The notes under the pieces are model-generated. The model had not been told where the DNA came from. It saw only the letters and a list, made by a program, of their open reading frames with translations, and did no database searches. A DNA stretch of 38,274 nucleotides from positions 991,389-1,029,662 of the forward strand of contig NC_057718.1 of NCBI RefSeq assembly GCF_004010195.1. The letters run 5' to 3'. This DNA is from Chiloscyllium plagiosum. Lineage: Eukaryota. The position numbers and the translations under genes were made by a program. Positions within the stretch are counted from its first letter, which is position 1. Each line of letters opens with the position of its first letter. This document shows, one piece after another, positions 3,084 through 36,536 of the stretch.

Positions 3084-4172
3084 ATGCAGGCAAGGATGCC
3101 CTGAGGCATGGTAAATTGGTGAAACCGAGCAAAGGCTATGGCAACGGATGAATGGGCACTGCACAACAATCAACAAACAGTAGTGTTCCCTCCCAGTTGG
3201 AGAACACTTCAGCGGTCCAGGACATTCGAACTCGGAACTGCGGACCGTCCTCCAAGGCGGACTTCGGGACAGGCAGCAGTGAAAAGTGGCCGAGCAGAGA
3301 CTGATAGCTAAGTTGGGACCTTGGGTTCATGTCACACTACAGGTGACCACCATTGCACTATACACACACACACACACAAAGGCACCCTCTCACAGACTTA
3401 GACACTTTACACTCATACACACACATACACTCTCTCTCACAGACACTCTCAACCCCCCCCACACACACACACTCACACCCCTACATGTACACATACCCAT
3501 ATATCTTTGTGGGGTGAATTTGTACTTGCAGAGTTACATTGTTGAAAATGTGTTGCTGGAACAGCGCAGCAGGTCAGGCAGCATCCAGGGAACAGGAGAA
3601 TTGACGTTTCGGGCATAAGCCCTTCTTCAGGCTTATGCCCGAAACGTCGATTCTCCTGTTCCCTGCATGCTGCCTGACCTGCTGCGCTGTTCCAGCAACA
3701 CATTTTCAGCTCTGATCTCCAGCATCTGCAGACCTCACTTTCTCCTCAGAGTTACATTGTACTTTGCTCAAAAATTGCATGAATCCACGTAAGACTCTGT
3801 TAACTCACATTTTAGATTAGAATCAGTCTAAACATTATGACACAGGGGGCTAACACCTCAACATCTTATCTGTGCTGACACTAATTGTGACAGTTAACCT
3901 GAGAATGTAACTTTTTAAAACCATTTTGTGATTTACATATGAAAGAAGTGAAATTATCATGGTCATTCTAATAGATGAGAGACTTAACAAACAATCAAGG
4001 TCTTTTTCAATGTATAATTTCAGTTACATCACACTGTAAACTTTTGCTATGAATTCTGTGTCTTACAATTGTGCCCTCCACAACCACTTGATGAAGGAGC
4101 GGCACCCCAAAAGCCAGTGCTTCCAATTAAATCTGTTGGACTATAACCTGGTGTTGTGTGATTTGTAACTTT
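3084..4172 (+). mobile_element. Penelope-like element 3' fragment (family B) with GIY-YIG remnant, interrupted by 3543-3746
   Basis: CRQGCPEAW*IGETEQRLWQRMNGH..PVGEHF translation, (CA)n-rich 3' region, decayed hammerhead near 4088-4119, and terminal gttggactataacctggtgttgtgtgatttgtaacttt. Confidence 0.8.
3543..3746. mobile_element. Fold-back PLE-derived mini-element (family A) with hammerhead core and 14-bp TSD
   Basis: Inverted arms of about 80 bp plus a tail of about 38 bp. CAGAGTTACATTGT is duplicated at 3529-3542 and 3747-3760. Minus-strand CUGAAGA..GAAACGUC at 3603-3630. Confidence 0.85.
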
Positions 4173-4298
4173 GCATGGGAGAAATTTAACTAGATGGAAT
4201 TTGGTCATTTGTCATGCAGTAATTTAATGTTCCTGTGTAATATGTTGTGTGAAGCATTCCAAAATATAAAGCAATTAATCCATTTTTGCGTTTTGTAG

Positions 4299-4468
4299 GT
4301 GTGCTGGAACACTTGAAGACACTGGAAAAATGTGCCAAGAAGCTGGCGTCAGAACAATTAGAAGCACAGCACAAAGCGCAGGTTCTAGAGCAGGAAAAAA
4401 CATTGTTGGAAAGACTGAGATCAAAAAGGGATGCACTGAGGACCAGAGTGACTGCACAGTCTGCTGGA
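4299..4468 (+). CDS. CENPO: Centromere protein O, internal coding exon (phase 1 to 0)
   Basis: Acceptor ttttgtag|GT, donor GGA|gtaagt. Encodes GVLEHLKTLEK...LERLRSKRDALR, resembling the vertebrate CENP-O N-terminal GVLAHLERLE...LRRLRDELR coiled coil (recalled human sequence). Confidence 0.92.
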
Positions 4469-4597: not shown

Positions 4598-4797
4598 AAT
4601 GTGTTGCTGGAAAAGCGCAGCAGGTCAGGCAGCATTCAAGGAACAGGAGAATCGACGTTTCGGGCATAAGCCCTTCTTCAGGCTTATGCCAGAAACGTCG
4701 ATTCTCCTGTTCCTTAGATGCTGCCTGACCTGCTGCGCTTTTCCAGCAACACATTTTCAGCTCAGATCTCCAGCATCTGCAGTCCTCACTTTCTTCT
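4598..4797. mobile_element. Fold-back PLE-derived mini-element (family A) with hammerhead core and 13-bp TSD
   Basis: Same structure and junction as 3543-3746. CTTTCCAGCTTAA at 4585-4597 and 4798-4810. Minus-strand core at 4654-4681. Confidence 0.85.
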
Positions 4798-5139
4798 CTT
4801 TCCAGCTTAACCTCCTTGTTTTTATTTTCTATGCCTCAGGTAATAAAAACAATTATCCACTCTGCCTCAGGTAATTAAAGCAAGTATTCACATGGCTTTT
4901 TAACCACCATATTCACACTTGCCCTGCTACCTTCAGCGATCTGTTGGTATGCAGACCAAGGTTCCTGTGCTCTTCAATGCTTTCTAAGATTCCACCATTC
5001 ACAGTGTAATCCTTTCCCTTGTTAGTCCTCCCCAAGCGCATTACTTTCACATTTTTGCAGGTTGAATTCTATTTGCCGTGCTCTTCCTAGTCAACAGGTC
5101 TGTTGGTATCTTCAACAGTTTATAGCTATCCTCGTCACT

Positions 5140-5462: not shown

Positions 5463-6093
5463 AAAGTTAAAAATCACACAACACCAGGTTATAGTCCAAC
5501 AGGTTTAATTGGAAGCACACTAGCTTTCGGAGCGACACTCCTTCATCAGGTGATAGTGGAGGGCTCGATCGTAACACAGAATTTATAGCAAAAATTTAGA
5601 GTGTGATGTAACTGAAATTATACATTGAAGAATTGATTGTCTGTTAAGCCTTTCATCTGTTAGAATACAGTGATAGTTTCACTTCTTTCATGTGTAAATC
5701 ACAAAACCCTTTTTTTAAAANNNNNNNNNNNNNNNNNNNNNNNNNNNNNNNNNNNNNNNNNNNNNNNNNNNNNNNNNNNNNNNNNNNNNNNNNNNNNNNN
5801 NNNNNNNNNNNNNNNNNNNNNNNNNNNNNNNNNNNNNNGTGTGGTGAGTGCAGAGTGTCTTAAGTCTGTGAGGGGGTGCATGTGTGGGAGTGTGTGTGTC
5901 TATAAGGGTGTGTGTGGGTGTCTGTGTGCGCGTCTGTGTGTACCTGTGTCCGTGTGTATGTGAGAATGTGTGTTTGTAGGAATATCTGTGTGTAGTGCAA
6001 TGGTGATCACCTGTAATGTGACATAAACCCAAGGTCCCGGTTGAGGACCTCCCTATGGGTACACCCCACTCCAACACCGGCATCTCCGAATCA
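5463..6093 (-). mobile_element. Penelope-like element (family B), inverted terminal segment plus plus-strand tail; contains N gap
   Basis: Reverse complement of the 3330-4172 repeat, with a hammerhead at 5518-5552 (-). Imperfect flanking duplication tgcccgttaaa / tgtccgttaaa. Confidence 0.8.
5518..5552 (-). ncRNA. Minimal type I hammerhead ribozyme motif (family B)
   Basis: CAC-CUGAUGA-A-GGAG-UGUCG-CUCC-GAAA-GC-UA-GUG: intact core, palindromic AGCU stem III, 3-bp stem I. Confidence 0.7.
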
Positions 6094-11434: not shown

Positions 11435-11567
11435 TCCTTGTTAGATATTCTGGCAGAGACACGAACAGTCTCAGTCCCACTGTTGGACAAAGTGGATGTT
11501 AGTGCCATGTTACTGAAAGGGAGAGTCAAGACTCTGCAGGACATTCTGGATGCATATAACCTTGCAG
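11435..11567 (+). CDS. CENPO: Centromere protein O, coding exon (phase 0 to 1)
   Basis: Acceptor tcttttatatgcag|TCC, donor GCAG|gtgagt. Ends RVKTLQDILDAYNLAG, like CENP-O KLENVKAILQAYHFTG. Phase joins both neighbouring exons. Confidence 0.9.
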
Positions 11568-11807
11568 GTGAGTTCCTGTTCATCCTTGAACATCACTCAA
11601 CTTACATAAATTTATTGTGGGATAGTGAGTACCAACTGCACACAAAATTGTTGACCACAATAATAATACTGATAATACGAAAACATGGATGAAAATAAAT
11701 AAGAGCAGCAGTGGACCATTCAGCCACTTGAATACAATTATGGCTGATTGTCAACCTTAATTCTATTTTTCAAACCCTTTATACTGCAAAACTCTTTCTT
11801 AACAATA

Positions 11808-12859: not shown

Positions 12860-13890
12860 GAAGGCATTGACTAAAAGATAGGAAACAGAGGGGACGTGTA
12901 GATGGGCATTCTCAGATTGGAGATGAGTTGGTGTTCCCAGGAATCAATGTTAGTACCCTTGACTTTTCTAATTTATATAGATGATTTAGCAGTGGGTGTT
13001 GAGGCAAAATCTCTAAATGTGCAGATCTCCTGAGCTTCGGAGAATAGGGAATTGTGAGGATGATGCTTACCCAGTTCAGAGGGACATTGACAAGTTGCCA
13101 AATGGTTAGAAATCTGGCAGATGAATTTCAGTGTGGAGAAATGCAAGTTTAATGCAAGACCATACAGGCTTAATAGTGCAACTTTGAGGGGAGTACAGGA
13201 GCAGAGGAACCTTGGTGTTCACATGCATAATTCTCTGAAGATGGCCAGGGAAGTTGAAACAGTTGTTAAGGAGGCTTATTGGTTCCTTGGCTTTTTTAAT
13301 AGAGGCATAGAATATAAAAGCAAGGAAGTAATGCCACCCCTTTGCAATCATTGGTCAGCCCAGATTTGGAGTATTGGGTTCATTTCTGGGCACCTTATTT
13401 AGGGAAATATATTAAAACCCTGGAGAGAACTCAAAGGAGATTTAGTAGAATGATACCAGGAATGAGGGTTTTAAACATAAGGAAAATTAGAGGAATTGGA
13501 CTTATTGTCCTGGGTGCAGAGAAGATTAAGTGATCTTATTGAAATGTGTTCAAAATTATGAACAATTTTGACAGGGTTAAGAAGGATATTCTGTCTCCAC
13601 AAGGTGGTATGTCATTAACTTGGGGTAATGATTTCAAGATGTCAGCGAGAGAGCTAGAAGTGAGGTGAGGAGAAACCTCTTTGTTCAGGAAGTTTTGGGA
13701 TGAGGATGCATTGCTGGGAGAATGGTAGAGGAAAATTCTGTACAAGGTTTCAAAGAGAGCTGGATATATATTTTAAAGAGAATTTAAAGGGCTGTGGAGT
13801 TGGGGCTGGAGAATGGGAATGGTTGTAGTTCTTTTGGGAGACGGTACAGACGCATTGGGTCAAAAGGCCTCCTTCTCTATGGTAAATTCC
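12860..13890 (+). mobile_element. Old CR1-group LINE RT/3' fragment
   Basis: WQMNFSVEKCK, LGVHMHNSLK, LVSPDLEYWVHFWAPY. Confidence 0.7.
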
Positions 13891-15712: not shown

Positions 15713-16044
15713 TTTATACTCTGTTTATAAGTCAGCCCTGATTCAGGTAAAATATCAGCAGCTTTGAAGGTCAGATTAGACATGATCCATGGTTTGCTTT
15801 TATCATAACCGTGGGTTCTGTTTACTCTTTTGGGTTAAATTAGTTCCAGCCAATCTACTTGGAGCACCTTTTATCTTTTGATAGTATATTGTAATTTAGT
15901 GGATAGATTAAGGCCACTTATCCCTAGACTGATGCGAGATTTTGGTGAAGTATCAGAGACACTCGGGCATCAGAAGGAGAGGCAAAAACGTCTGTTTGGA
16001 TGATCACTGTTGGTTACACTTGATCTTTTTCTGTCTCTGTGTAG

Positions 16045-16310
16045 GAGTTAGTGTTAAGGTGAGAGAGCCAAGCTCTACATTCTCTTTCTGTATCAGCACT
16101 GCACATGAGGGTATCTACCTAGACTCTTATTACCTGGACATTCACACCAAGCATCCATGCAAGATAATTCAGCACAACATACCTGCCTTCATCCCTCTGG
16201 AGCAGACAGCTCGCAAGTACCTGCAGAATGACCTTGGGCAGTTCATGGATGTGCTGCGAGATGCCCTGAATGCCTATGCCAGCAGAAGATATCAGGTGGA
16301 GCAATTACAG
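16045..16310 (+). CDS. CENPO: Centromere protein O, coding exon (first RWD-like domain; phase 1 to 0)
   Basis: Acceptor ctctgtgtag|GA, donor CAG|gtataa. FCISTAHEGIYLDSYYLD...HNIPAFIPLEQTARKYLQ...LNAYASRRYQ closely matches the CENP-O/Mcm21 signature CISTAFEGNLLDSYFVD...HSVPVFIPLEEIAAKYLQ...LNAYSGRKYQ. Confidence 0.96.
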
Positions 16311-16374
16311 GTATAATTGGTACACAGTGATTCAGCTGAATAATATTCAGATGGAATAAAGCACTCTCAACTAT

Positions 16375-17221: not shown

Positions 17222-18199
17222 CAAAGGGAGCGGTGAGTCACTGATTTGAGCTTTTAAATTTGAAGTCAGAGAGCAGAGATTTCTGGAAAAGGAGGGACTT
17301 CTTATTTTTATTTCCATCCAGCGAAATAAGTCAGTGTTTTCTCAACCAGAGATCCTACCTTCGTAGGGCCTCCCACCCAACAACCTCCGCTAACCTTAAA
17401 GACCAGAGACATATCAGGTAAGCGTCTCTTCTTTTTTACTTTGTGATAAGGGGACTAGCAGGGATGGCAGTGCAGGGACAGCTATGTTCCTCCTGTATGA
17501 TGTTTGAGGTGAAGGATGCCATTAGTGTCCCATCCAAGTACATCTGCAGGAAGTGCGCCCAACTCTCGCTCCTCCAAGACCGTGTTAGGGAACTGGATGA
17601 ACTTCGGATCATTCAGGAGGCAGAGGCTGTGATAGATAAGAGTTACAGGGAAGTAGTTACTCCTAGGCACGAAGTAAGCTGGGTAACTGTTCGAAGGGGG
17701 AAAAAACAGTCAGTGGAGGGATCCCCTGTGGTCGTTCCCCTGAAAAACATGTATGTCGTTTTGGATACTGTTGAGGGGGACGACTTACAGGGGTATGCAG
17801 TGGGGCCCAGGTCTCTGGCACAGAGCCTGTCCCTGTTGCACAGAAGGGAAGGAGGGAAAGGAGGAGAGTGTTAGTCATTGGGGACTCAATAGGTAGAGGC
17901 TCAGATAGAAGGTTTGTTGGGAACGAACGAGACTCGTGGTTGGTGTGTTGCCTCCCAGGTGCCAGGGTCCGTGATGTCTCTGATCGTATCTTTGGGGTCC
18001 TGAATGGAGAGGTGACCAGCCTCAAGTTGTTGTCCATGTGGGTACCAACGACATAGGTAGAAAGAGGGATAGGGATGTAAGGCAGGATTTCAGGGAACTA
18101 GGGTGGAAGCTGAGAGCTAAAACAAACAGAGTTGTTATCTCTGGTTTGTTACCCGTGCCACGTGATAGCGAGGCAAGGAATAGGGGGAGATTTCAGCTG

Positions 18200-18775
18200 T
18201 TGAAACTTTATTGCTGGAACAGCACAGCAGGTCAGGCAGCATCCAGGGAACAGGAGATTCGACGTTTCGGGCACAGGCCCTTCTTCAGGNNNNNNNNNNN
18301 NNNNNNNNNNNNNNNNNNNNNNNNNNNGCGGATGATGCGCTGTACATGGAGATTGGTGGGGTGGTAGGTGAGGACCAGTGGGGTTCTGTCCTGGTGGCGG
18401 TTGGAGGGGCGGGGCTCAAGGGCGGAGGAGCGGGAAGTGGAGGAGCAACAAATCCGCAGCCTCCAGCAACGGACCTCCCTCCGGATCCTCCACTCCACGC
18501 TTGCAGCCTTGCGCCGGTACCTACATTCCCTGCAACTCGACCTACCCCAGCTCAGGACAACTCTCTCACAGACCTGTAAAGGACCTCTACTGTTCTTCAT
18601 TTACAGAAGAATCCATAGACTGAACAAACAGTTCTTTCTAGCAGATTCCTGAAGAAGGGCCTGTGCCCGAAACGTCGAATCTCCTGTTCCCTGGATGCTG
18701 CCTGACCTGCTGTGCTGTTCCAACAATAAAGTTTCAACTTTGATCTCCAGCATCTGCAGACCTCACTTTCTCCTC
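18200..18775. mobile_element. PLE family A insertion with inverted terminal arms inside CR1 ORF1; 13-bp TSD
   Basis: GAGATTTCAGCTG at 18187-18199 and 18776-18788. Internal PLE ORF piece RTPLVLTYHPTNLHVQRII (-). Hammerhead cores at 18261-18288 (-) and 18643-18682 (+). Contains a 38-nt gap. Confidence 0.85.
18643..18682 (+). ncRNA. Minimal type I hammerhead ribozyme, apparently intact
   Basis: AGAUUC-CUGAAGA-A-GGGC-CUGU-GCCC-GAAA-CG-UC-GAAUCU: perfect 6-bp stem I, 4-bp stem II, palindromic ACGU, GUC triplet (predicted cut after 18676). Confidence 0.85.
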
Positions 18776-21700
18776 GAGATTTCAGCTGAACATGTGGCTG
18801 AAAGAAAAGTGCAGGAGGGAGGGTTTCAGGTTCTTGGATAATTGGGGCTCATTCTGGGGAAGGTGGGACTTGTACAAACAGGACGGGTCTTCACTTGAAC
18901 CAGAGGGATACTAATGTCCTGGGTGGGAAATTTGCTGGTGCTATTCGGGTGGGTTTAAACTAGCTCAGCAGGGGGATGGGATCCAGAGGTGTAGTTACAG
19001 TGCACAGGAGGATGAGAGTAGGAAGGACAGGGACAGGATTTCAGGGTCACAGGAATATGCTGGCAGACAGCGAAGTGGTTTGAAGTGTGTCTACTTCAAC
19101 GCCAGAAATATCCAAAATAAGGTAGGGGAGCTTGGAGCCTGGATAGGTACCTGGGACTTTGATGTAGCCATTTCGGAGACATGGATAGAGCAGGATGAGG
19201 AATTGTCGTTGCAGGTTCCAGGGTTTAGCTCTTTCATTAAGAACAGGCAAGGTGGTAAAAGAGGGGGAGGTGTGGCCTTGTTAGTCAAGGATAGTATAAC
19301 AGTGGCTGAGAGAACTTTCGATGAGGACTGAGGTAGTGTGGGCTGAGGTTAGAAACAGGAGAGGAGAGGTCACACTGCTTGGAGTTTTTCATGGGCCTCC
19401 GCAGAGTTCCAGGGAGGTGAAAGAGAGGATTAGCAACATTATTCTGGGTAGGAGTGAAAGGAACAGGGTGGTCATTATGGGGGACTTTAATTTCCCCAAC
19501 ATTGACTGGAAATGTTATTACTCTAGTACGTCAGATGGATCAGTTTTTGTCCAATGTGTACAGGAGTATTTTCTGACACAGTATGTCAAAGGGCTGACAA
19601 GAGGGGAGACCACACTGGATCTGGTGCTTGGTAATGAACCAGGACAGGTGTTTGATTTAGTTGTAGATGAGCTCTTTGGAGAGAGTGACCATAATTCAGT
19701 TACGTTTAGTTTAGCGATGGAAAGGGATAGGTACATGCCACAGGTCAAGACTTATCGATGGGGCAAGGACAATTATAACGCGATTAGGCAAGAATTAGAA
19801 TGCATAGAATGGGGTAGCAAAATGCATGTCCTTGATTGGTATGTCCCTGTCAGGCAGGGAGGAAGTGATAAGATAAGGGAACCGTGGTTTACAACAGAAA
19901 TTACATCTCTTGTTAAGAAGAAGAAGGAGGCTTATATGTTGATGAGGCAATATGGTTCAGAAGAGGCGATGGAGAGTTACAGATCAACTCGGAAGGATTT
20001 AAAGAGAGAGTTAAGAAGAGCAAAGAGAGGAAATGAACAGTCTTTAGCAAATAGAATAAAGGAGAACCCAAAAGCTTTCTATAGGTATGTGAGGAATAAA
20101 AGGATGATTAGGGTAGGAATAGGGCCAGTCAAAGACAGAAGTGGGAAATTGTGTGTGGATCCTGTGGAGATCGGAGAGGTGCTAAAGGAACATTTCTCAT
20201 TGGTTTTCACTCAGGAAAAGGAGAATATTGTAGAGGAGAATAATGAGGTACGAGATATTAGACTAGAAAGGATCGAGGTTAGTTACGAACAGATGTTACC
20301 AATTCTAGAAGGAGTGAAAGTAGACAAGCCCCCTGGGCCAGATGGGATTTATCTGAGGATTATCTGGGAAGCTAGGGAGAAGGTAGCAGAGCCTTTGGCT
20401 TTGATATTTGAGTCGTCATTGTCTACAGGTTTAATGCTCGAGGACTGGAGGATTGCAAATGTTGTGCCCTTGTTCAAGAAGGGCAATAGAGATGACCCAG
20501 GTAATTATAGACCAGTGAGCCTTACTTCTGTTATAGGAAACGTTCTGGAAAGGATTATAAGAGAGAAGATTTATAATCATCTAGCAAGCAACATTTTGAT
20601 TTCAGATAGTCAACATGGTTTCGTCAAGGGTAGGTCGTGTCTCACAAACCTCATTGAGTTTTTTGAGAAAGTGACCAAGCATGTAGATGAGGATAGGGCA
20701 GTTGACGTGGTATACATGGACTTCAGTAAAGCCTTTGACAAGGTTCCACATGGTAGGCTGTTGGAGAAAATGCAGAGGTGTGGAATTGAGGGTGATTTAG
20801 CAGTTTGGGTTAGAAACTGTCTTTCTGAAAGAAGGCAACGAGTGGTGGTTGATGGAAAATATTTAGCCTGGAGTCCGGTTACTAGTGGTGTGCCATAAGG
20901 ATCCGTTTTGGAACCACTGCTGTTTGTCATTTTTATAAATGACTTAGCGACGCAGGCATAGGTGGATGGATTAGTAAATTTGCAGACAACACTAAAGTCA
21001 GTGGAGTAGTGAACAGTTTTGAAGAATGTTACAGGTTGCGGGGGACTTGGATAAACTGCAGAATTGGGCTGAGAGGTGGCAAAAGGAGTTCAATGAAGCT
21101 AAATGTGAGGTAATGCACTTTGGGAAGAATAACAGGAAGGCAGAGTACTGGGACAATGGAAAGATTCTTGGTAATGTGGATGTGCAGAGGGATCTTGGAG
21201 TCCATGTACATTGATCCCTAAAAGTTGCCACTCAGGTGGATAGTGCTGTTAAGGAGGCATATGGTGTTATAGATTTCGTTCGTAGAGGGATTGAGTTTCG
21301 GAGCTGCAATATCATGCTGCAACTATACAAAACGCTGGTGCGGCCACACTTGGAATATTGTGTACAATTCTGGTCGCCATATTTCGGGAAGGATGTGGAA
21401 GTATTGTAAAAGGTGCAGAGGAGACTTAGTAGGATGTTGCCTGGTCTGGAGGGAAGGTCTTATGAGGAAAGGCTGAGAGACTTGGGTCTGTTCTCATTGG
21501 AAAGAAGGCGGCTAAGAGGGGATTTGATAGAGACATACAAGATGATCAGAGGATTAGATAGGGTAGACAGTGAAAGTCTTCTTCCTAGGATGATGACGTC
21601 AGCTTGTACGAGGGGACATAGCTACAAATTGAGGGGGTGATAGATTTAAGACAGATGTCAGAGGCAGGTTCTTTACTCAGAGAGTGGTAAGGGCATGGAA

Positions 21701-22442
21701 TGCCCTACCTGCTAATGTCATTAACTCAGCCATGTTAGGAAGATTTAAACAATCCTTAGATAAGTACATGGATGATGATGGGATAGTGTAGGGGGATGAC
21801 ATGAGAATAGTTCACAGGACGGCGCAACATTGAGGGCCGAAGGGCCTGTTATGTGCTGTATTGTTCTAGTTCTATGTAAAGGAAATTCGCTACCTTTATC
21901 TGGTCTGGTCTACATATGACACCAGGCTCTGATATCTCGACTGCCCTCTGGGCAATTAACAATGGGGAAAACAAAAATGGATCCACGTCAAAAGACAATT
22001 TTTTTTTTAAAACCATGTATGCTACCACCCAGAAGAATAAGGAATGAGCAGAAATGATAAATGGGAACAACACCATCTGTAAGCTGCCCTCCCAGCCATT
22101 CGCCAGCCTGATTTGGAAAAATATGTTTGTTCCTTCGGTGTTGCTGGGTCAAAATTCTGGAACTCTTCTTTGGCAACATTGTAGGTGACCCTACATCCCC
22201 ATGGACTGTACTGGTTCAAGACGGTGGCTCACCACCATCTTCTCAAGGGTAATTCGGGATTGGCAACAAACCTGGGCAAGACAATGACATCTACATTACT
22301 TTGTACTCTTTGTTTATTTTTTCAAGTAATTAAGCACTCAGGACTGGTAGAGTAGAAATTAGGTTCAGAATGAAGTTACCGCTACACTACTGACCAATAA
22401 GTTTACAATAAGCTAAATACTAATAATGTCACTCTTTCCCAG

Positions 22443-22614
22443 GTGCACTACCATACATCCCTGACGGGCCAGGTACAGAAGAATGCTGCATATAACTTGT
22501 TGAAATTTCAGTATCCCATTCAGTGTGGGGACATGCGTCATGACGTCCAAGTGAAACTGGTATATGAGGATCTTGCATGCTACCTTCCGACTGAAGTCAC
22601 ATTGACCTGTACAG
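22443..22614 (+). CDS. CENPO: Centromere protein O, coding exon (phase 0 to 1)
   Basis: Acceptor ctctttcccag|GTG, donor ACAG|gtaaga. LTGQVQKNAAYNLLKFQY...KLVYEDLACYLPTEVTLTC matches CENP-O LTGPLQRNPLCNLLSFTY...RLLYKDLTATLPTDVTVTC. Confidence 0.95.
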
Positions 22615-22649
22615 GTAAGAACAAATAGGAGTTGGATCCCAATACGTGG

Positions 22650-23459: not shown

Positions 23460-23590
23460 GAGAAAGTGAGGTCTGCAGATGCTGGAGATCAAAGTTGAAA
23501 CTTTATTGCTGGAACAGCACAGCAGGTCAGGCAGCATCCAGGGAACAGGAGATTCGATGTTTCGGGCACAGGCCCTTCTTCAGGAATGAC
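23460..23590 (-). mobile_element. Single-arm PLE family A insertion (131 bp) starting at the hammerhead; 15-bp TSD
   Basis: TGTTTCCCCTTGTAG at 23445-23459 and 23591-23605, within an old LINE 3' end. Minus strand AUUC-CUGAAGA-AGGGCCUGUGCCC-GAAACAUC-GAAU. Confidence 0.85.
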
Positions 23591-24318
23591 TGTTTCCCCT
23601 TGTAGCAAAGTCTGGCACCATATGACATAATCTCAAGGTAAGGGATCACTCGATTAAGACAGAGCTGAAGGATTTCTCTTCTCAGAGGGTTGTGAATTTA
23701 TGGAATTCTTTCCCGTAGAAGGCTGTTAAGGCTAGGTCATTCAGTATATACAATGCTGGAATAGGCAGATTTTTAATCAGTAAGGGAATGAAGGATTATT
23801 GGGACAAGGCAGGGAAGTGGAATTGAGAATGATCAGATCAGCAGCCATGATCTCATTGAATGGCAGAGGAGACTTGATGGGCTGAATGCACTACCTCTGT
23901 TCCGACATCTTACGATCTTCAGGGTTTGAGCAATGGCTAAGAAGAAAACAAATGAGAAAGATCGAAGTATCAAGCAAGCAAGATGGAGAGGGAGGGAGGG
24001 AGGGATTGAACTGAGCACTGGATTAAGTGAGGGATTCTGTGGGAGAATATGTTTTTTTCCTTTGTTTATGGGATGCGGGTTTTGCTGGCCATGACAGAAT
24101 TTATTGCTTATCCTGAATTACCTTGAAAAAATGGTGGTGAGCTGCCTTCTTAAATTGCTGCAGTCCATGTGCTGTAGGCAGATCCACAGTGCTATTAGGG
24201 AGGGAGTTCCAGGGTATTGACTCAGCAAAACTAATGGAACAGTGAAATGTTTCAAAGTTGGAGGGGAACTTGCAGGGACTGGTGTTCGAATGTACCTGTT
24301 GCCCATGTCCTTCTAGAT

Positions 24319-27720: not shown

Positions 27721-28210
27721 TTTGAGATAAAACCATTGTTTGGAATTTAGAATAGTGGGAATGGAGGTTAGGGCAGTTGAATGTTCTCCTGCAAAATGTG
27801 GGAGGTAACGGTCACCACTAGTCTTTGCTGACTTCCTCTATGGGAAGTGCACTCAACTCCAGCTCCTCGAAAACCGTGTTAGGGAACTGGAGTTGGATGA
27901 ACTTTGGATCATTCGGGAGGCAGCGGGGCTTATTGAGAGGAGTTACAAGGAGGTAGTCACACGTCAGTTGCAATAAAAAGGCAGACGGGTACAGTCAGGG
28001 GACAGAAAAGGAACCGGCAGGCAGTGGCCGTTTCCCTCAACAACAAGTGTACCATTTTGGATACTGTTGGGGGAGGATGACTTACCAGGGGTAAGCCATG
28101 GGGTACAGGTCTCTGGCACAGAGTCTGTCCCTGTTGCTCAGAAGGGAAGGGGGGTGAGGAACAGAGCATTAGTCATTGGGGACTCCATAGTTAGGGGGAC
28201 AGATAGGAGG

Positions 28211-28586
28211 TTGTTTTCATTGGAGAAAAGAAGGTTTAGGGGTGACTTGATAGAGGTGTACAAGATGATTAGGGGTTTAGATAGGGTTGACCGTGAGAAC
28301 CTTTTTCCACGTATGGAGTCAGCTATTACAAGGGGGCATAGCTTTAAATTAAGGGGTGGTAGGTATAGGACAAATGTTAGGGGTAGGTTCTTTACTCAGC
28401 AAGTCGTGAGTTCATGGAATGCCCTGCCAGTAACAGTGGTGGACTCTCCCTTTTTATGGGCATTTAAGCGGGCATTGGATAGGCATATGGAGGATAGTGG
28501 GCTAGTGTAGGTTATGTGGGCTTGGATCAGCGCAACATCGAGGGCCAAAGGGCCTGTACTGCGCTGTATTCTTCTATGTTCTATGT
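28211..28586 (+). mobile_element. Young CR1 3' fragment inserted into ORF1 of the older CR1
   Basis: LFSLEKRRFRGDLIEVYKM..WNALP sits between host GTDRR and FCG; its 3' end is near-identical to 26273-26430. Confidence 0.88.
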
Positions 28587-30137
28587 TCTGTGGGGACGAG
28601 AGAGACTCGTTGTTGGTGAGTCCCAGGTGCCAGGGTTCATGACGTCTCGGATTGTGTTTTCAGGAGGGGGAGGGGGAGCAGCTCCAAGTCGTGGTCCACA
28701 GTGGTAGGAAAGGGATGGGGGTTTAAGGCAGAAATTCAGGGAACTAGGGTGGAAGGTTGGTGCTAGAACAAACAGTTGTTATTTCTGGTTTGTTATGCGT
28801 GCCACGTGCTAGCGAGGTGAGGAATAGGGAGAAGGAGGAGTTGAACACGTGGCTACAGGGATGGTGCAGGAGGGAGGGATTTGGATTCCTGGATAATTAA
28901 GGCTCATTCTGGGGTAGGTGGGACCTCTACAAACAGAATGGTCTGCACTTGAACAGAGGGGTACCAATATCCTGGGGGACGATATTTGCAAATGCTGTTT
29001 GGGAAGGTTTAAACTAATTCAGCAGGAAGATGGGTACCTAATTTGTAGATCCAGTGTTCAGGAGGTTGAGAGTAATGAGGTCAGAATTTGAGGTTTCAAT
29101 TCCTGGAGCATCCAGAATAAGGTGAGTGAACTTGCAGCACCTGGGACTTCACTGTTGTAGCCATTTCAGAGACATGGATAGAGCAGGGACAGGAATGGTT
29201 GTTGCACGTTCCGGGATTTAGATGTTTCGGTAAGAACAGAGAAGATGGTAAAAGAGGGGGAGGTGTGGCATTGTTAGTCAAGGACAATACTACGGTGGCA
29301 GAAAGAACGTTTGAGGACTTATTTACTGGGAGGTTTCTATAGGCCTCCGAATAGTTCCAGAGATGTAGAGGAAAGGATAGCAAAGATAATTGTGGATAGA
29401 AGCGAGAGTGACAGGTAGTTGTTATGGGGGCTTTAACTTTCCAAATATTGACTGGGAATACTATAGTTCCAAGTACTTTAGGTGGGTCAGTTTTTGTCCA
29501 ATGTATGCAGGAGGGTTTCCTTACTCAGTATGTGGATGGGCCAACTAGGGGCGAGGCCACATTGGATTTGGTACTGGGGAATGAACCCGGCCAGGTGTTA
29601 GATTTGGATGTAGGTGAGCACTTTGGTGATAGTGACCAAACTTCGGTTATGTTTACTTGAGCGATGGAAAGGGATAAGTACATACCGCAGGGCAAGAATT
29701 ATTGCTGGGGGAAAGGCAATTATGATGCAATTAGGCAAGATTTAGGATGCATAGGATGGAGAAGGAAACTGCAGGGGATGGGCACAACTGAAATGTGGAG
29801 CTTATTCAAGGAACAGCTACTGCATGTGCTTGATAAGTACGTACCTGTCAGGAAGGAAGGAAGTGGTCGAGTGAGGAAGCTGTGGTGTATTAAAGAAGTT
29901 GAATCTCCTGTCAAGAGGAATAAGAAGGCTTATGTTAGGATGGGACATGAAGGCTCAGTTCAGGCACTTGAGAGTTACAGGTTAGCCAGGAAAGACCTAA
30001 AGAGAGAGATAAGAAGAGCCAGGAGGGGATATGAGAAGTCATTCACAGATAGGATAAAGGAAAACCCTCAGGCTTTTTATAAATATGTCAGGAATAAAAG
30101 AATGACTAGAGAAAGATTAGGGCCAATTAAGTACAGT

Positions 30138-30915
30138 TGTGGTTTTGTTCACCGAGCTGGGAATTTGTGTTGTAGACATTTCCTCCCCTGTCTAGGTGAC
30201 ATCCTCAGTGCTTGGGAGCCTCCTGTGGAGCGCTTCTGTGATGTTTCCTCCAGCATTTATAGTGGTTTGTCTCTGCCGCTTCCGGTTGTCAGTTCCAGCT
30301 GTCCGCTGCAGTGGCCAGACAGCCAGACTACTAGGACTCATAACAGCACACAAACCAACAGCCACTCTCAGACAACAACTCACCAGGACAAAGGACCCGA
30401 TGCCCAGCATTCGCTAAACCAATGTAGTGTACAAAAGGACTGCACAAAACACTACACAGGACAAACAGGAAGACAGCTAACAATCCATATCCACGAACAC
30501 CAACTAGCCACGAAATGACACGACCAGCTATCCTTAGTAGCCACACACGCAGATGACAAGCAACATGAGTTCGACTGGGACAACACTACTATTATAGGAC
30601 AAGCCAAACAGAGAACAGCCAGGGAATTCCTAGAGGCATGGCACTCATCCACAGATTCTATCAACAAACACATCGACCTGGACCCAATATACCGACCACT
30701 GCAGCGGACAGCTGGAACTGACAACCGGAAGTGGCAGAGACAAACCACTATAAATGCCAGAGGAAACAACACAGAAACGCTTCGCAGGAGGCTCCTAAGC
30801 ACTGAGGATGTCACCTAGACAGGGGACGAAACGTCTGCAACACAAATTCCCAGCTCGGCGAACAGAACCACAACAACGAGCACCCGAGCTACTCATAAAC
30901 TTCTCACAAACTTTG
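30138..30915 (+). mobile_element. Penelope-like element (family C): inverted arm, GIY-YIG remnant, terminal repeat and tail; 13-bp TSD
   Basis: AATTAAGTACAGT at 30125-30137 and 30916-30928. NVVYK..DCTKHYTGQTGRQL..EHQLA..HEFDWDN..REFLEAW. Arms ~30138-30316 and ~30696-30871 are inverted. Confidence 0.9.
30799..30838 (+). ncRNA. Minimal type I hammerhead ribozyme motif (family C)
   Basis: GCA-CUGAGGA-U-GUC-ACCUAGACAGGG-GAC-GAAA-CG-UC-UGC; GUC triplet (predicted cut after 30835). Confidence 0.8.
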
Positions 30916-33600: not shown

Positions 33601-33676
33601 TTCTGAGATTCAGAGAGTGAAAAGTGCAAGGGTTTATATATGTCTTTCTCACTGTAACTGCCTTACTTTGCACCAG

Positions 33677-33843
33677 CAGAAGATTCAGAATCCATGAGGA
33701 CAAAGTTAGAAAGTCATCAGCAACTCTTCCAAAACATGGAGCTTCACCGAGTATTTAACAGCTTGAAGATGCAACAAGAAGCAGTTGTATCAAGCAGCTG
33801 TCTCTCTGCAGTACACAGTTCAGCCAGTCCTTCCAGTCACTGA
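33677..33843 (+). CDS. CENPO: Centromere protein O, last coding exon (not in ORF track)
   Basis: Pyrimidine tract then caccag|CA. Phase 1 gives AEDSESMRTKLESHQQLFQNMELHRVFNSLKMQQEAVVSSSCLSAVHSSASPSSH* (TGA 33841-33843). SHQQLF...LHRVFNSL matches CENP-O SHETLF...LHQVFASF. Confidence 0.9.
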
Positions 33844-35135: not shown

Positions 35136-36225
35136 CACTAATTCTGATAGTTCCCATTACACTTTTGTAATCAGAAATTTCTTTGGCCAAAACCATCTCA
35201 GTATCACCAAAAACTCAGATTTGCAGTTACTGCATTTAAACCACCACCACCAACTCTACACTACAGATTTCACTTATAATCTTATGACCTGCTCAAAGTT
35301 TGAATGAACGTTTTGCATAACCCCAAATGTTTTCATTCTTTTGGCCTCTCCACCTATTGCTTATTCCTGCTTATCCCAACTCATCCTAAATCAACACTAA
35401 ACTCTCACCCCAGGCTCCCCTTCATCCACAATACTCAATAATTTTATCTGATTACTTTCTGTCCTTGGATTCCAAAGTGATGATGTCTATTCTCTATCCA
35501 GAGGAGAGAATAACTAGCAACAGAAACAGGTGTGAAATTGTTCAGCACCAGGCTTAATTGTTTAAAAACCTGGCACTCTTTAAACAGCGGGTGTCTTCTA
35601 GGTTCCTGATCANNNNNNNNNNNNNNNNNNNNNNNNNNNNNNNNNNNNNNNNNNNNNNNNNNNNNNNNNNNNNNNNNNNNNNNNNNNNNNNNNNNNNNNN
35701 NNNNNNNNNNNNNNNNNNNNNNNNNNNNNNNNNNNNNNNNNNNNNNNNNNNNNNNNNNNNNNNNNNNNNNNNNNNNNNNNNNNNNNNNNNNNNNNNNNNN
35801 NNNNNNNNNNNNNNNNNNNNNNNNNNNNNNNNNNNNNNNNNNNNNNNNNNNNNNNNNNNNNNNNNNNNNNNNNNNNNNNNNNNNNNNNNNNNNNNNNNNN
35901 NNNNNNNNNNNNNNNNNNNNNNNNNNNNNNNNNNNNNNNNNNNNNNNNNNNNNNNNNNNNNNNNNNNNNNNNNNNNNNNNNNNNNNNNNNNNNNNNNNNN
36001 NNNNNNNNNNNNNNNNNNNNNNNNNNNNNNNNNNNNNNNNNNNNNNNNNNNNNNNNNNNNNNNNNNNNNNNNNNNNNNNNNNNNNNNNNNNNNNNNNNNN
36101 NNNNNNNNNNNNCCTTCAACCCCACTAATCTCTGGATACAGCGTATTATCCTCCATCATTTCCACCACCTACAATCAGACCCCATCAGTTTCCCTCACAC
36201 GTGATCAACAATGCCCTCGTGATAT

Positions 36226-36260
36226 CACCTGATGAAGGAGCGACGCTCCGAAAGCTAGTG
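36226..36260 (+). ncRNA. Minimal hammerhead ribozyme motif (family B)
   Basis: CAC-CUGAUGA-A-GGAGC-GAC-GCUCC-GAAA-GC-UA-GUG. Confidence 0.75.
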
Positions 36261-36501: not shown

Positions 36502-36536
36502 CACTAGCTTTCGGAGCGTCGCTCCTTCATCAGGTG
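36502..36536 (-). ncRNA. Minimal hammerhead ribozyme motif (family B), mirror copy
   Basis: Reverse complement is identical to 36226-36260. Confidence 0.75.

What the first reader, a model, noticed from the sequence alone, without database searches (positions are those of the whole stretch)
18643..18682. Intact sense-strand hammerhead ribozyme inside a CENPO intron
Seen: complete core CUGAAGA/GAAA/GUC, 6-bp stem I (AGAUUC/GAAUCU), GGGC/GCCC stem II and palindromic ACGU in place of stem III, on the CENPO-transcribed strand. Known: such minimal type I hammerheads (PLE and newt satellite 2 type) cleave best as dimers through the palindrome. Inference: the CENPO pre-mRNA contains a latent self-cleavage site after 18676.
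Basis: partly seen in the sequence, partly recalled or inferred. Interest (0 to 1): 0.7.

Follow-up and report, generated by a model that had tools for sequence, protein, structure and literature searches.

The report
Penelope-type hammerhead copy in CENPO intron
The sequence is a genuine, intact minimal hammerhead-ribozyme motif in a CENPO intron, but it is one of about twelve thousand identical copies left in this shark genome by Penelope-like jumping genes and is unlikely to cut the host transcript.

Summary
Observation confirmed. 18643-18682(+) reads AGAUUC-CUGAAGA-A-GGGC-CUGU-GCCC-GAAA-CGUC-GAAUCU, with C17 at 18676. It lies on the sense strand of a CENPO intron: exons map at ~16041-16313 and 22440-22622, and one is 100% identical to Chiloscyllium plagiosum CENP-O.

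It is not a host feature. The 33-nt core occurs 12,020 times in the 3.56-Gb genome (reversed control 0), and the full 40-mer 280 times.

It shows the four features Cervera & de la Peña (2014) list for Penelope-like-element (PLE) minimal hammerheads: an extra base between positions 9 and 10.1, the G10.1-C11.1 pair, a palindrome in place of helix III, and co-varying families.

It sits in one insertion (18200-18775) flanked by a 13-bp target-site duplication and nested in a LINE. The insertion has an inverted 5'-truncated arm and a 37-nt one-sided "tail", as described for PLE insertions.

Host pre-mRNA cleavage is unlikely. Published single motifs do not cleave. There is no same-family sense partner in the window. 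The antisense arm would lock the motif in a 91-bp duplex (-189 kcal/mol). Rfam hammerhead models do not match.

This scan already reported the same repeat in at least six other windows of this genome. It is a known kind, of low interest.

The parts
18643..18682 (+). Minimal type-I hammerhead motif. Stem I 18643-18648/18677-18682; core CUGAAGA 18649-18655; unpaired A 18656; stem II 18657-18660/18665-18668; GAAA 18669-18672; palindrome ACGU 18672-18675; C17 at 18676.
   Evidence: Read directly. The minimum-free-energy fold is stem I + stem II. There are 280 exact 40-mer copies and 12,020 exact 33-mer core copies genome-wide.
18446..18775 (+). The '+ arm' of the insertion: a 5'-truncated copy of an internally deleted (non-autonomous) PLE derivative. 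It holds a remnant of the ORF's N-terminal region (18446-18648), the hammerhead, and a 99-nt 3' tail.
   Evidence: 85-98% identical over 18446-18775 to many genomic copies that continue upstream. The upstream body, taken from copy L013, aligns to residues 31-137 of a 909-aa RVT_1+GIY-YIG protein at E 1e-7.
18739..18775 (+). 37-nt 'tail' extension, present on the + arm only. It lies between the two alternative 3' ends of the family.
   Evidence: Of 80 copies, 30 end at 18732-18747, 40 end at 18769-18784 and 10 end earlier. The inverted arm ends at the equivalent of 18738. This matches the 30-40 bp PLE tail described in PMC8557442 and PMC11167929.
18200..18289 (-). Outer part of the inverted '- arm': a second hammerhead (CUGA...GUC at 18288-18261, stem I 3' strand at 18260-18255) plus the short tail. 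It is antisense in the CENPO transcript.
   Evidence: 90 of 91 bases complementary to 18648-18738. Sequence.
18290..18327 (.). Run of 38 N (an assembly gap or an unreadable stretch) inside the inverted arm. About 520 nt of PLE sequence is expected here.
   Evidence: In other copies the ORF fragment lies 520-860 nt upstream of the hammerhead.
18328..18445 (-). Inner part of the '- arm': a 39-codon fragment of the PLE ORF, from just upstream of the GIY-YIG endonuclease domain.
   Evidence: Translation. All 150 scored genomic matches are 100% identical, out of 27,368 first-look candidates. In copy L032 the frame runs on into a Cys-rich motif and a GIY-YIG-like stretch. Homologues carry RVT_1 and GIY-YIG.
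18187..18199 (.). Left copy of the 13-bp target-site duplication GAGATTTCAGCTG.
18776..18788 (.). Right copy of the 13-bp target-site duplication GAGATTTCAGCTG.
   Evidence: A paralogous LINE copy is uninterrupted at this site (28746-28832 continues at 28839-28930).
17801..20895 (+). Host LINE copy (AP-endonuclease + reverse transcriptase) into which the PLE insertion landed.
   Evidence: Self-BLAST to 28099-29319 on both sides of the insertion. Pfam Exo_endo_phos, Exo_endo_phos_2 and RVT_1 at 18915-20895.
16041..16313 (+). CENPO exon upstream of the intron that holds the finding (limits are those of the tblastn match).
22440..22622 (+). Next CENPO exon downstream (limits are those of the tblastn match).

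Best explanation
The motif is the minimal hammerhead ribozyme (min-HHR) carried by a young, very abundant family of endonuclease-encoding Penelope-like retroelements (PLEs) in a bamboo-shark-type genome.

One integration event placed a composite unit at 18200-18775, inside a LINE copy in a CENPO intron. Both nicked target strands primed reverse transcription. This left two 5'-truncated arms head-to-head, with their 3' tails facing the 13-bp target-site duplication.

- The antisense arm derives from the 3' part of an autonomous PLE: ORF fragment, N gap, hammerhead, short tail.
- The sense arm derives from an internally deleted derivative: N-terminal ORF remnant, hammerhead, long tail.

The ribozyme's role, if it has one, lies in the element's own RNA. 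The literature suggests processing of tandem PLE transcripts, as a dimer and/or with help from the PLE protein. At this locus it is a passenger. In the CENPO pre-mRNA it has no same-family sense partner, and it should be locked in a 91-bp duplex with the upstream inverted arm, so appreciable self-cleavage after 18676 is unlikely.

Shown here: motif anatomy, copy numbers, target-site duplication, nested structure, arm homologies, tail bimodality, predicted folds. Inferred: dual-strand priming, lack of activity at this locus.
For: The motif meets the four features that Cervera & de la Peña list for PLE min-HHRs (PMC4209133, parts 1-2 of the text read):
- a base between positions 9 and 10.1 (A18656);
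- the G10.1-C11.1 pair;
- a palindrome at 15.2-16.2;
- families with co-varying stems. Three window families have stem I AGAUUC/GAAUCU, CAC/GUG and GCA/UGC; stem II GGGC/GCCC, GGAGC/GCUCC and GUC/GAC; and palindromes ACGU, AGCU and ACGU.

Copy numbers: 12,020 exact cores with control 0, and 280 exact 40-mers.

Insertion structure: the 13-bp target-site duplication and an uninterrupted paralogous site; inverted arms matching at 90 of 91 bases.

PLE origin of the antisense arm: its ORF fragment matched 150 of 150 scored genomic copies at 100% identity. It continues into a GIY-YIG-like stretch in copy L032. Its homologues are 894-909-aa proteins with RVT_1 and GIY-YIG.

PLE origin of the sense arm: the body upstream of the hammerhead is homologous to residues 31-137 of such a protein.

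Tail: 3' ends of 80 copies fall into two clusters about 36 nt apart, 30 short and 40 long. This fits the published 30-40-bp PLE tail and the two internal reverse-transcription start sites. It also fits the finding that the PLE protein cleaves and extends both target strands (PMC11167929 main text read; PMC8557442 passages read).

Folds: within 18200-18776 every base of 18649-18682 pairs with 18288-18255, and the arm duplex scores -188.9 kcal/mol. The double-hammerhead dimer scores -22.1, against -27.3 for the best dimer and -23.2 for two monomers.

Only 18649 carries this family's motif on the + strand of the window.
Against: - The motif is sequence-perfect, in sense orientation, and folds on its own into stem I + stem II, so nothing in the sequence forbids catalysis.
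- The family looks recently active: many 100% identical copies, and RNA reads from family members. PLE protein, which made an Anolis PLE hammerhead cleave in vitro (PMC11167929), could therefore be present in some cells.
- Nearest-neighbour folding ignores tertiary contacts and co-transcriptional kinetics.
- The N run at 18290-18327 means the antisense arm's continuity and the hairpin's loop size are unverified.
- No Rfam hammerhead model matches, so the assignment rests on the published descriptor features rather than a curated model.
- No cleavage assay was possible.
Confidence: 0.87

Rival explanations
1. One reading: the sense-strand hammerhead is a latent self-cleavage site of the CENPO pre-mRNA. 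It would act as a dimer through the ACGU palindrome, possibly with help from PLE protein, and so affect CENPO expression.
For: The core is intact, stem I is 6 bp, and the motif is in sense orientation in the intron. The isolated motif folds correctly. A family-C motif with the same ACGU palindrome lies on the + strand at 30802-30835, in the last intron. Protein-assisted cleavage of a PLE hammerhead is published (PMC11167929).
Against: - A single PLE min-HHR showed no detectable cleavage, and dimers cleaved only weakly (PMC4209133).
- There is no same-family sense copy in the window.
- Helix III pairs have a probability of about 1e-4 in the dimer ensemble.
- The whole motif is paired to the upstream inverted arm in the predicted fold.
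- It is one of 12,020 identical copies, so there is no sign of locus-specific selection.
Confidence: 0.07
2. The inverted arms matter more to the host than the ribozyme does. In the pre-mRNA they would form a 91-bp near-perfect intronic double-stranded RNA, which could be edited or diced, or could slow splicing. The sense tail also carries AATAAA (18725-18730), which could cause premature polyadenylation.
For: The arms match at 90 of 91 bases and the duplex scores -188.9 kcal/mol. AATAAA is read. In one poly(A) single-cell RNA run, 32 reads from family copies carry A-runs after the equivalent of 18739.
Against: No read covered this locus's unique flanks (18460-18624 and 18790 onward have depth about 0 in run X19), so nothing shows an effect here. 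Thousands of such pairs exist genome-wide (one search lists many -/+ pairs), so tolerance is the default expectation.
Confidence: 0.1
3. A domesticated intronic hammerhead, like those conserved in amniote RECK, CTCL and DTNB introns.
For: It is an intronic, sense-strand, type-I topology, and such domestication from retroelement hammerheads has been proposed (PMC6155905, passages read).
Against: - The insertion is young: its arms are 98.9% alike and it is up to 100% identical to other copies.
- It is flanked by a target-site duplication and nested in a LINE.
- It is one of 12,020 identical cores.
- It has no helix III or loop contacts.
- It does not match the Rfam models, which as I recall include the HH9 and HH10 families.
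Confidence: 0.01
4. A retrozyme-type locus that yields a small circular RNA after cleavage at two tandem hammerheads.
For: Elsewhere in the genome the family does form same-strand tandems: 417 nt apart in L003, 286 nt in L002 and L021, 608 nt in L006. A 2026 preprint argues that animal retrozymes are non-autonomous PLE derivatives (10.64898/2026.07.22.740005; abstract and the first part (of two) of the Results read).
Against: At this locus the two hammerheads lie on opposite strands (18288- and 18649+), so no transcript carries two cleavage sites.
Confidence: 0.02
5. A chance match to the hammerhead consensus.
For: None beyond the shortness of the core.
Against: 0 of 100 shuffles reach the observed number of pattern hits. 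12,020 exact copies against 0 for the reversed control. The unselected features (extra base, G10.1-C11.1, palindrome) all match the published family.
Confidence: 0.005

Closest known systems
Minimal hammerheads (min-HHR) in the pseudo-LTRs of metazoan Penelope-like elements (Cervera & de la Peña 2014, PMC4209133)
   Same: Type-I topology; no helix III or loop 3; palindromic 15.2-16.2; an unpaired base between 9 and 10.1; the G10.1-C11.1 pair; several co-varying families per genome; mostly dispersed single motifs, plus pairs on opposite strands 100-700 bp apart; thousands of copies per genome.
   Different: Stem II is 4 bp here, against the 7-8 bp typical of the Schistosoma families. This copy's stem I is 6 bp, but most copies of the family have about 4 bp, since only 280 of the 12,020 exact cores carry AGATTC. 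The passages I read named fishes, coelacanth, Xenopus and reptiles, not cartilaginous fishes.
Canonical EN+ PLE insertion unit: pLTR, adjacent inverted 5'-truncated copy, one-sided 30-40-bp tail (Craig et al. 2021, PMC8557442; Frangieh et al. 2024, PMC11167929)
   Same: Inverted 5'-truncated arm; a 37-nt tail at one end only; two preferred 3' ends; target-site duplication; an assembly gap inside the inverted repeat; RT+GIY-YIG ORF relatives.
   Different: The two arms here appear to come from different templates, an autonomous 3' end and an internally deleted derivative. The tail ends lie upstream of the putative start codon rather than inside the ORF as in the Anolis element (read from copy L006; inferred).
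Animal non-LTR retrozymes (Cervera & de la Peña 2020, PMC7229834, listing only; Li et al. 2026 preprint, abstract and the first part (of two) of the Results read)
   Same: Non-autonomous, PLE-related, hammerhead-bearing short units. The sense arm belongs to a deleted derivative that forms same-strand tandems elsewhere (L003, L006).
   Different: This locus has a single sense motif plus an inverted one, not a tandem, so no circular RNA is expected.
Conserved intronic hammerheads of amniotes, in RECK, CTCL and DTNB (De la Peña & García-Robles 2010, as described in PMC6155905, passages read)
   Same: Sense-strand type-I hammerhead inside an intron of a protein-coding gene.
   Different: Those are single-copy, conserved at the same position across species, and have a canonical helix III and loop-loop contacts. 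This one is a young repeat copy with none of these.
Newt satellite 2 and viroid 'double hammerheads' (Forster et al. 1988, as cited in PMC4209133 and PMC6765202)
   Same: The short or absent helix III implies activity only as a dimer through a palindrome.
   Different: Those have a 1-2-bp helix III with a small loop and occur in tandem arrays. Here helix III is absent and the locus is not tandem.

Membership tests
PLE minimal hammerhead (min-HHR, Cervera & de la Peña 2014) | Conserved core boxes CUGANGA ... GAAA ... UH in type-I order | tested here: met
   CUGAAGA at 18649-18655, GAAA at 18669-18672, U16.1-C17 at 18675-18676.
PLE minimal hammerhead (min-HHR, Cervera & de la Peña 2014) | [quoted passage not shown] | tested here: met
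   A18656. The other two families in the window also have one (A and U).
PLE minimal hammerhead (min-HHR, Cervera & de la Peña 2014) | G10.1-C11.1 base pair closing helix II | tested here: met
   G18657-C18668. It is also kept in families B and C.
PLE minimal hammerhead (min-HHR, Cervera & de la Peña 2014) | No helix III or loop 3; palindromic 15.1-16.1 so that two copies can form helix III | tested here: met
   ACGU at 18672-18675. Family B has AGCU.
PLE minimal hammerhead (min-HHR, Cervera & de la Peña 2014) | Several consensus families in one genome with compensatory stem changes | tested here: met
   Three families in the window differ in fully paired stems I and II. Within this family the variation is mostly in loop II (CUGU, UUAU, UAAU, AUGU, UCAU). 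These were read by eye; no formal covariation statistic was run.
PLE minimal hammerhead (min-HHR, Cervera & de la Peña 2014) | Location in the terminal repeat of an RT + GIY-YIG element | tested here: met
   In genomic copies the ORF fragment lies 520-860 nt upstream of the hammerhead + tail. Homologues have RVT_1 and GIY-YIG. In the window only a 39-codon ORF fragment is visible.
PLE minimal hammerhead (min-HHR, Cervera & de la Peña 2014) | Self-cleavage 3' of H17 (as dimer or protein-assisted) | not testable with these tools
   Only folds could be run. No pile-up of RNA read ends at 18676/18677 was reported in the one raw RNA run that gave reads, a poly(A) single-cell library that is poorly suited to the question.
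Canonical EN+ Penelope-like element insertion | Adjacent inverted 5'-truncated copy | tested here: met
   18200-18289(-) against 18648-18738(+), 90 of 91 bases. Both arms lie inside one target-site duplication.
Canonical EN+ Penelope-like element insertion | 30-40-bp tail extension, often at one end only | tested here: met
   The + arm ends at 18775 and the - arm at the equivalent of 18738, a 37-nt difference. Among 80 copies, 30 have short ends and 40 have long ends.
Rfam hammerhead families (Hammerhead_1 and relatives; family names recalled) | Score at or above the gathering threshold of a curated covariance model | tested here: not met
   0 matches at gathering scores in the whole window. 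No hammerhead family among the 6 weak matches at E<=10 in 18300-19000. This is expected, because those models include a helix III hairpin.
Domesticated intronic hammerhead (RECK/CTCL/DTNB type) | Single-copy motif conserved at an orthologous intron position | tested here: not met
   12,020 identical cores. The insertion is young and flanked by a target-site duplication. Conservation across species could not be tested.
Non-LTR retrozyme locus | Two or more same-strand hammerheads in tandem, delimiting a unit that can circularise | tested here: not met
   The two motifs of the insertion are on opposite strands. Same-strand tandems exist only at other loci.

The most novel reading that the evidence does not exclude
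The family looks recently active, so its protein, which for an Anolis PLE was needed for hammerhead cleavage, may be present in some shark cells. This sequence-perfect sense copy could then be cut in the CENPO pre-mRNA whenever the 91-bp hairpin is unwound or edited. Thousands of sense intronic copies would then link PLE activity to host-transcript loss. As a lesser point, the two arms of this one insertion come from two different template RNAs, which would be an in-vivo footprint of two-template, two-strand priming by a dimeric PLE complex.
Probability: 0.05. Interest if true: 0.55.

Novelty: new member of a known kind. Interest (0 to 1): 0.15.

Why it matters
On its own it matters little. 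It is one more copy of a well-described class, the minimal hammerheads of Penelope-like elements, and this scan has already reported the same repeat in several other windows of this genome.

It is useful in three ways:
- It shows that "intact ribozyme in a gene's intron" calls in this genome should first be checked against a repeat with 12,020 identical copies.
- It documents that a shark genome holds a very young, very abundant PLE family with perfect hammerheads. That would be good material for testing whether these ribozymes cleave in vivo, which remains unshown. Frangieh et al. found no RNA-seq ends at the cut site of the Anolis element.
- This locus is a clean example of a composite PLE insertion whose two arms differ in origin.

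Tried and rejected
- **Rfam.** The whole window at gathering scores and 18300-19000 at E<=10 gave no hammerhead match. The six weak matches were microRNA, riboswitch and lncRNA models at E 0.31-6.7, taken as chance.
- **Sequencing runs.** No RNA holder was listed.
- **Reads.** Four runs were laid. X20 laid 0 reads. In X19, 468 of 479 reads lay only partly on the stretch, so they come from other copies. Nothing covered the unique parts (18460-18624, 18790 onward), and no place was reported where many molecules begin or end. X19 is a poly(A) single-cell library, so this is not a test of cleavage.
- **Self-search.** A DNA search of the genome with 18328-18445 found nothing, not even itself, because common words are skipped. 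A protein search was used instead.
- **Pfam on fragments.** Scans of the window's PLE fragments and of the L032, L013 and L003 frames gave no family. In L032 the GIY-YIG region runs into N.
- **Withdrawn: discrete short elements.** I first took apparent sharp 5' ends at 18446 and at L003:1258 to mark discrete 330-nt and 460-nt elements. Searches showed these were artefacts of using truncated copies as queries.
- **Withdrawn: a 130-nt class.** The apparent 130-nt class largely reflects the different upstream context of the autonomous element (loose-end consensus). True short copies do exist, for example 23461-23593, which has its own target-site duplication.
- **Artefact.** The 950-aa "open frame" at L042 is a 39-nt tandem repeat, not an intact ORF.
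- **Dropped guess.** An early guess that the host LINE's ORF1 is an esterase got no Pfam support.
- **Paper not held.** Lünse, Weinberg & Breaker (PMC5785218) is not in the library. It is known here only through citations in PMC6765202.
- **Partial Pfam coverage.** Only 150 of the 501 stop-to-stop frames of 38 aa or more were scanned (list). The rest of the CENPO mapping relied on tblastn.
Full report
**1. The observation**

The + strand at 18643-18682 reads AGATTC CTGAAGA A GGGC CTGT GCCC GAAA CGTC GAATCT. In standard hammerhead numbering:
- stem I is a 6-bp helix (18643-18648 with 18677-18682);
- C3-A9 is 18649-18655;
- an unpaired A lies at 18656;
- helix II is 4 bp closed by G10.1-C11.1, with loop CUGU;
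- G12-A14 is 18669-18671;
- A15.1-C15.2-G16.2-U16.1 is the palindrome ACGU (18672-18675);
- C17 is 18676.

The isolated 40-mer folds into stem I + stem II with an open core at -11.6 kcal/mol.

Chance is excluded. A loose descriptor gives 30 overlapping hits in the window against 5.4 expected, with 0 of 100 shuffles as high. The exact 33-nt core occurs 12,020 times in the 3.56-Gb genome against 0 for the reversed control. The full 40-mer occurs 280 times against 0.

No Rfam family matches, either at gathering scores or at E<=10 around the site. That is what one expects for a motif without a helix III hairpin.

**2. Gene context**

Pfam CENP-O matches a + strand frame at 15933-16313 (E 5.1e-9). 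The exon piece 16098-16310 is 100% identical to a protein that NCBI names centromere protein O isoform X1 of Chiloscyllium plagiosum. tblastn with five shark CENP-O proteins places exons on the + strand at about 4298-4468, 11435-11605, 16041-16313, 22440-22622 and 33676-33840. The motif therefore lies in the intron between the third and fourth of these, on the transcribed strand, as claimed.

**3. What the motif belongs to**

The same motif recurs in the window at 3603-3630(-), 4654-4681(-), 18261-18288(-) and 23556-23583(-, with ACAU). Two other hammerhead families recur at 5521-5549(-), 36229-36257(+) and 36505-36533(-), and at 30173-30208(-) and 30802-30835(+).

Self-BLAST shows that the hammerhead plus about 100 nt downstream is a repeat unit.

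The finding sits in a single insertion, 18200-18775. It is bounded by a 13-bp target-site duplication, GAGATTTCAGCTG, at 18187-18199 and 18776-18788. The insertion interrupts a LINE copy with AP endonuclease and RT (Pfam hits at 18915-20895). The paralogue of that LINE at 28746-28930 is uninterrupted at the same point.

The insertion has two arms placed head-to-head.

*The sense arm (18446-18775).* It is 85-98% identical to many genomic copies that continue further upstream. The translated body upstream of the hammerhead, taken from copy L013, aligns to residues 31-137 of a 909-aa protein that carries RVT_1 and GIY-YIG (E 1e-7). Copy L006 shows the order hammerhead, tail, N-terminal ORF part, hammerhead, with 608 nt between hammerheads. 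The sense arm is therefore a 5'-truncated copy of an internally deleted, non-autonomous PLE derivative.

*The antisense arm.* It consists of three pieces:
- 18200-18289, a hammerhead plus a shorter tail, matching the sense arm at 90 of 91 bases;
- a run of 38 N;
- 18328-18445, which encodes a 39-residue ORF piece.

That ORF piece has 27,368 first-look candidates in the genome, and all 150 scored matches are 100% identical. In copy L032 the frame continues through a Cys-rich motif into a GIY-YIG-like stretch before the locus turns to N. Its protein homologues include 894-909-aa proteins with precomputed RVT_1 and, on my own scan, RVT_1 + GIY-YIG. In nine other copies the fragment lies 520-860 nt upstream of a hammerhead + tail. 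About 0.5 kb is therefore probably missing in the N run.

**4. Agreement with published PLE biology**

Cervera & de la Peña 2014 (PMC4209133; parts 1-2 of the text read) define min-HHRs of PLEs and list the features that emerged beyond their search descriptor:
- families with covariation;
- a nucleotide between 9 and 10.1;
- a conserved G10.1-C11.1 pair;
- palindromic 15.2-16.2.

All four are met here. They also report pairs on opposite strands 100-700 bp apart, thousands of copies per genome, no detectable cleavage by a single motif, and only low cleavage by dimers or trimers.

Craig et al. 2021 (PMC8557442; passages read) describe the typical PLE insertion. It has heavy 5' truncation, an adjacent inverted 5'-truncated copy, and a 30-40-bp tail often present at one end only, and such structures often cause assembly problems. 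Here the sense arm ends at 18775 and the antisense arm at the equivalent of 18738, a 37-nt difference. Among 80 copies in the window and fetched loci, 30 end at 18732-18747, 40 at 18769-18784 and 10 earlier. An N run sits inside the inverted repeat.

Frangieh et al. 2024 (PMC11167929; main text read) show four things for an Anolis PLE:
- the protein cleaves and extends both target strands;
- reverse transcription starts at two internal sites that bracket the tail;
- the hammerhead cleaves only when the protein is added and is not needed for insertion in vitro;
- public RNA-seq shows no ends at the cut site.

Dual-strand priming explains the head-to-head arms with tails outward. That step is inferred for this locus, not shown.

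**5. Would it cut the CENPO pre-mRNA?**

Evidence for:
- perfect core, sense orientation and correct local fold;
- a family that looks recently active, so its protein may be around.

Evidence against:
- The only other + strand motifs in the window are a doubtful one at 13235, a family-C motif at 30802 (same ACGU palindrome but 12 kb away), and a family-B motif at 36229 (AGCU, beyond the last coding exon). There is no tandem partner.
- In a two-copy cofold the double-hammerhead structure scores -22.1 kcal/mol, against -27.3 for the best dimer and -23.2 for two separate monomers. Helix III pairs have a probability of about 1e-4.
- In the 18200-18776 context every base of 18649-18682 pairs with 18288-18255. 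The arm duplex is 91 bp with one mismatch and scores -188.9 kcal/mol.

These are nearest-neighbour predictions, not experiments.

The RNA data were uninformative for this locus. One raw poly(A) single-cell run gave 479 reads, of which 468 ran off into unlike sequence, meaning they come from other copies. No read covered the unique parts, and no pile-up of ends was reported.

**6. Verdict**

The motif is a passenger in a nested transposon insertion and belongs to a published class. The same repeat has already been reported by this scan in at least six other windows of this genome. I re-derived the assignment independently here.

I searched for papers holding 'Penelope', 'Chiloscyllium' and 'transposable' and got 2 papers; judged by the search listing alone, neither is about hammerheads. 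I did not see sharks named in the passages of PMC4209133 that I read. The 2026 preprint sampled one cartilaginous fish. I therefore file it as a new member of a known kind, of low interest.

The one mildly new point is that the two arms of a single insertion appear to derive from two different templates. This is subject to the unresolved N run.

Noticed in passing
window 3543-3747 and 4600-4798: Two ~200-bp fold-back copies of the same family, each with its own 12-13-bp target-site duplication (AGAGTTACATTG; CTTTCCAGCTTA). An antisense arm with a whole hammerhead is joined to a sense arm inside the stem II loop. In both, only the sense arm has the ~37-nt tail extension. Both lie in CENPO introns; the second is 130 nt downstream of the exon at 4298-4468.
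   Followed up: partly
window 23461-23593 (-): A short solo copy (hammerhead + long tail) flanked by the duplication TGTTTCCCCTTGTAG. Its palindrome is ACAU, so helix III pairing is broken.
   Followed up: partly
window 36229-36257(+) and 36505-36533(-); also 5521-5549(-): A second hammerhead family: CUGAUGA-A-GGAGC..GCUCC-GAAA-GCUA, with palindrome AGCU and A17. The pair near 36.2-36.5 kb is convergent (tails inward), the opposite of the divergent pairs of the main family. It sits next to a 500-N run at 35613-36112.
   Followed up: no
window 30173-30208(-) and 30802-30835(+): A third hammerhead-like family: CUGAGGA-U-GUC...GAC-GAAA-CGUC, with stem I GCA/UGC. The - copy has lost the GAAAC box. 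The + copy lies on the sense strand in the last CENPO intron.
   Followed up: no
L043 1-2442 (G000:C1:13999300-14001741): A tandem array of more than 2.4 kb with a 39-nt unit, directly abutting a PLE ORF fragment. Its reverse complement matches the element's Cys-rich (zinc-finger-like) coding region. It looks like a satellite born from a PLE coding segment. It also produced a spurious 950-aa open frame.
   Followed up: partly
window 18725-18730 (+), tail of the element: The young subfamily's tail carries AATAAA in sense orientation within the CENPO intron. In one poly(A) RNA run, 32 reads from family copies carry A-runs after the equivalent of 18739, close to the short-tail end. This may mean polyadenylation or internal priming at that site.
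   Followed up: partly
window 18650-18652: In the deleted derivative, the remnant N-terminal reading frame (18368-18649) ends at the TGA that lies inside the hammerhead's CUGA box. This is probably incidental.
   Followed up: no
protein P0018: A ray protein that NCBI names 'divergent protein kinase domain 1C isoform X2' matches the PLE endonuclease-region fragment at 56% identity over the whole query. This suggests a PLE piece was incorporated into that gene model.
   Followed up: no
genome-wide, list: Many exact-core copies occur as close -/+ pairs 37-51 nt or about 250-320 nt apart, for example on contig C1 at 2375274/2375311 and 6781489/6781527. The head-to-head arrangement is therefore the rule for this family.
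   Followed up: partly
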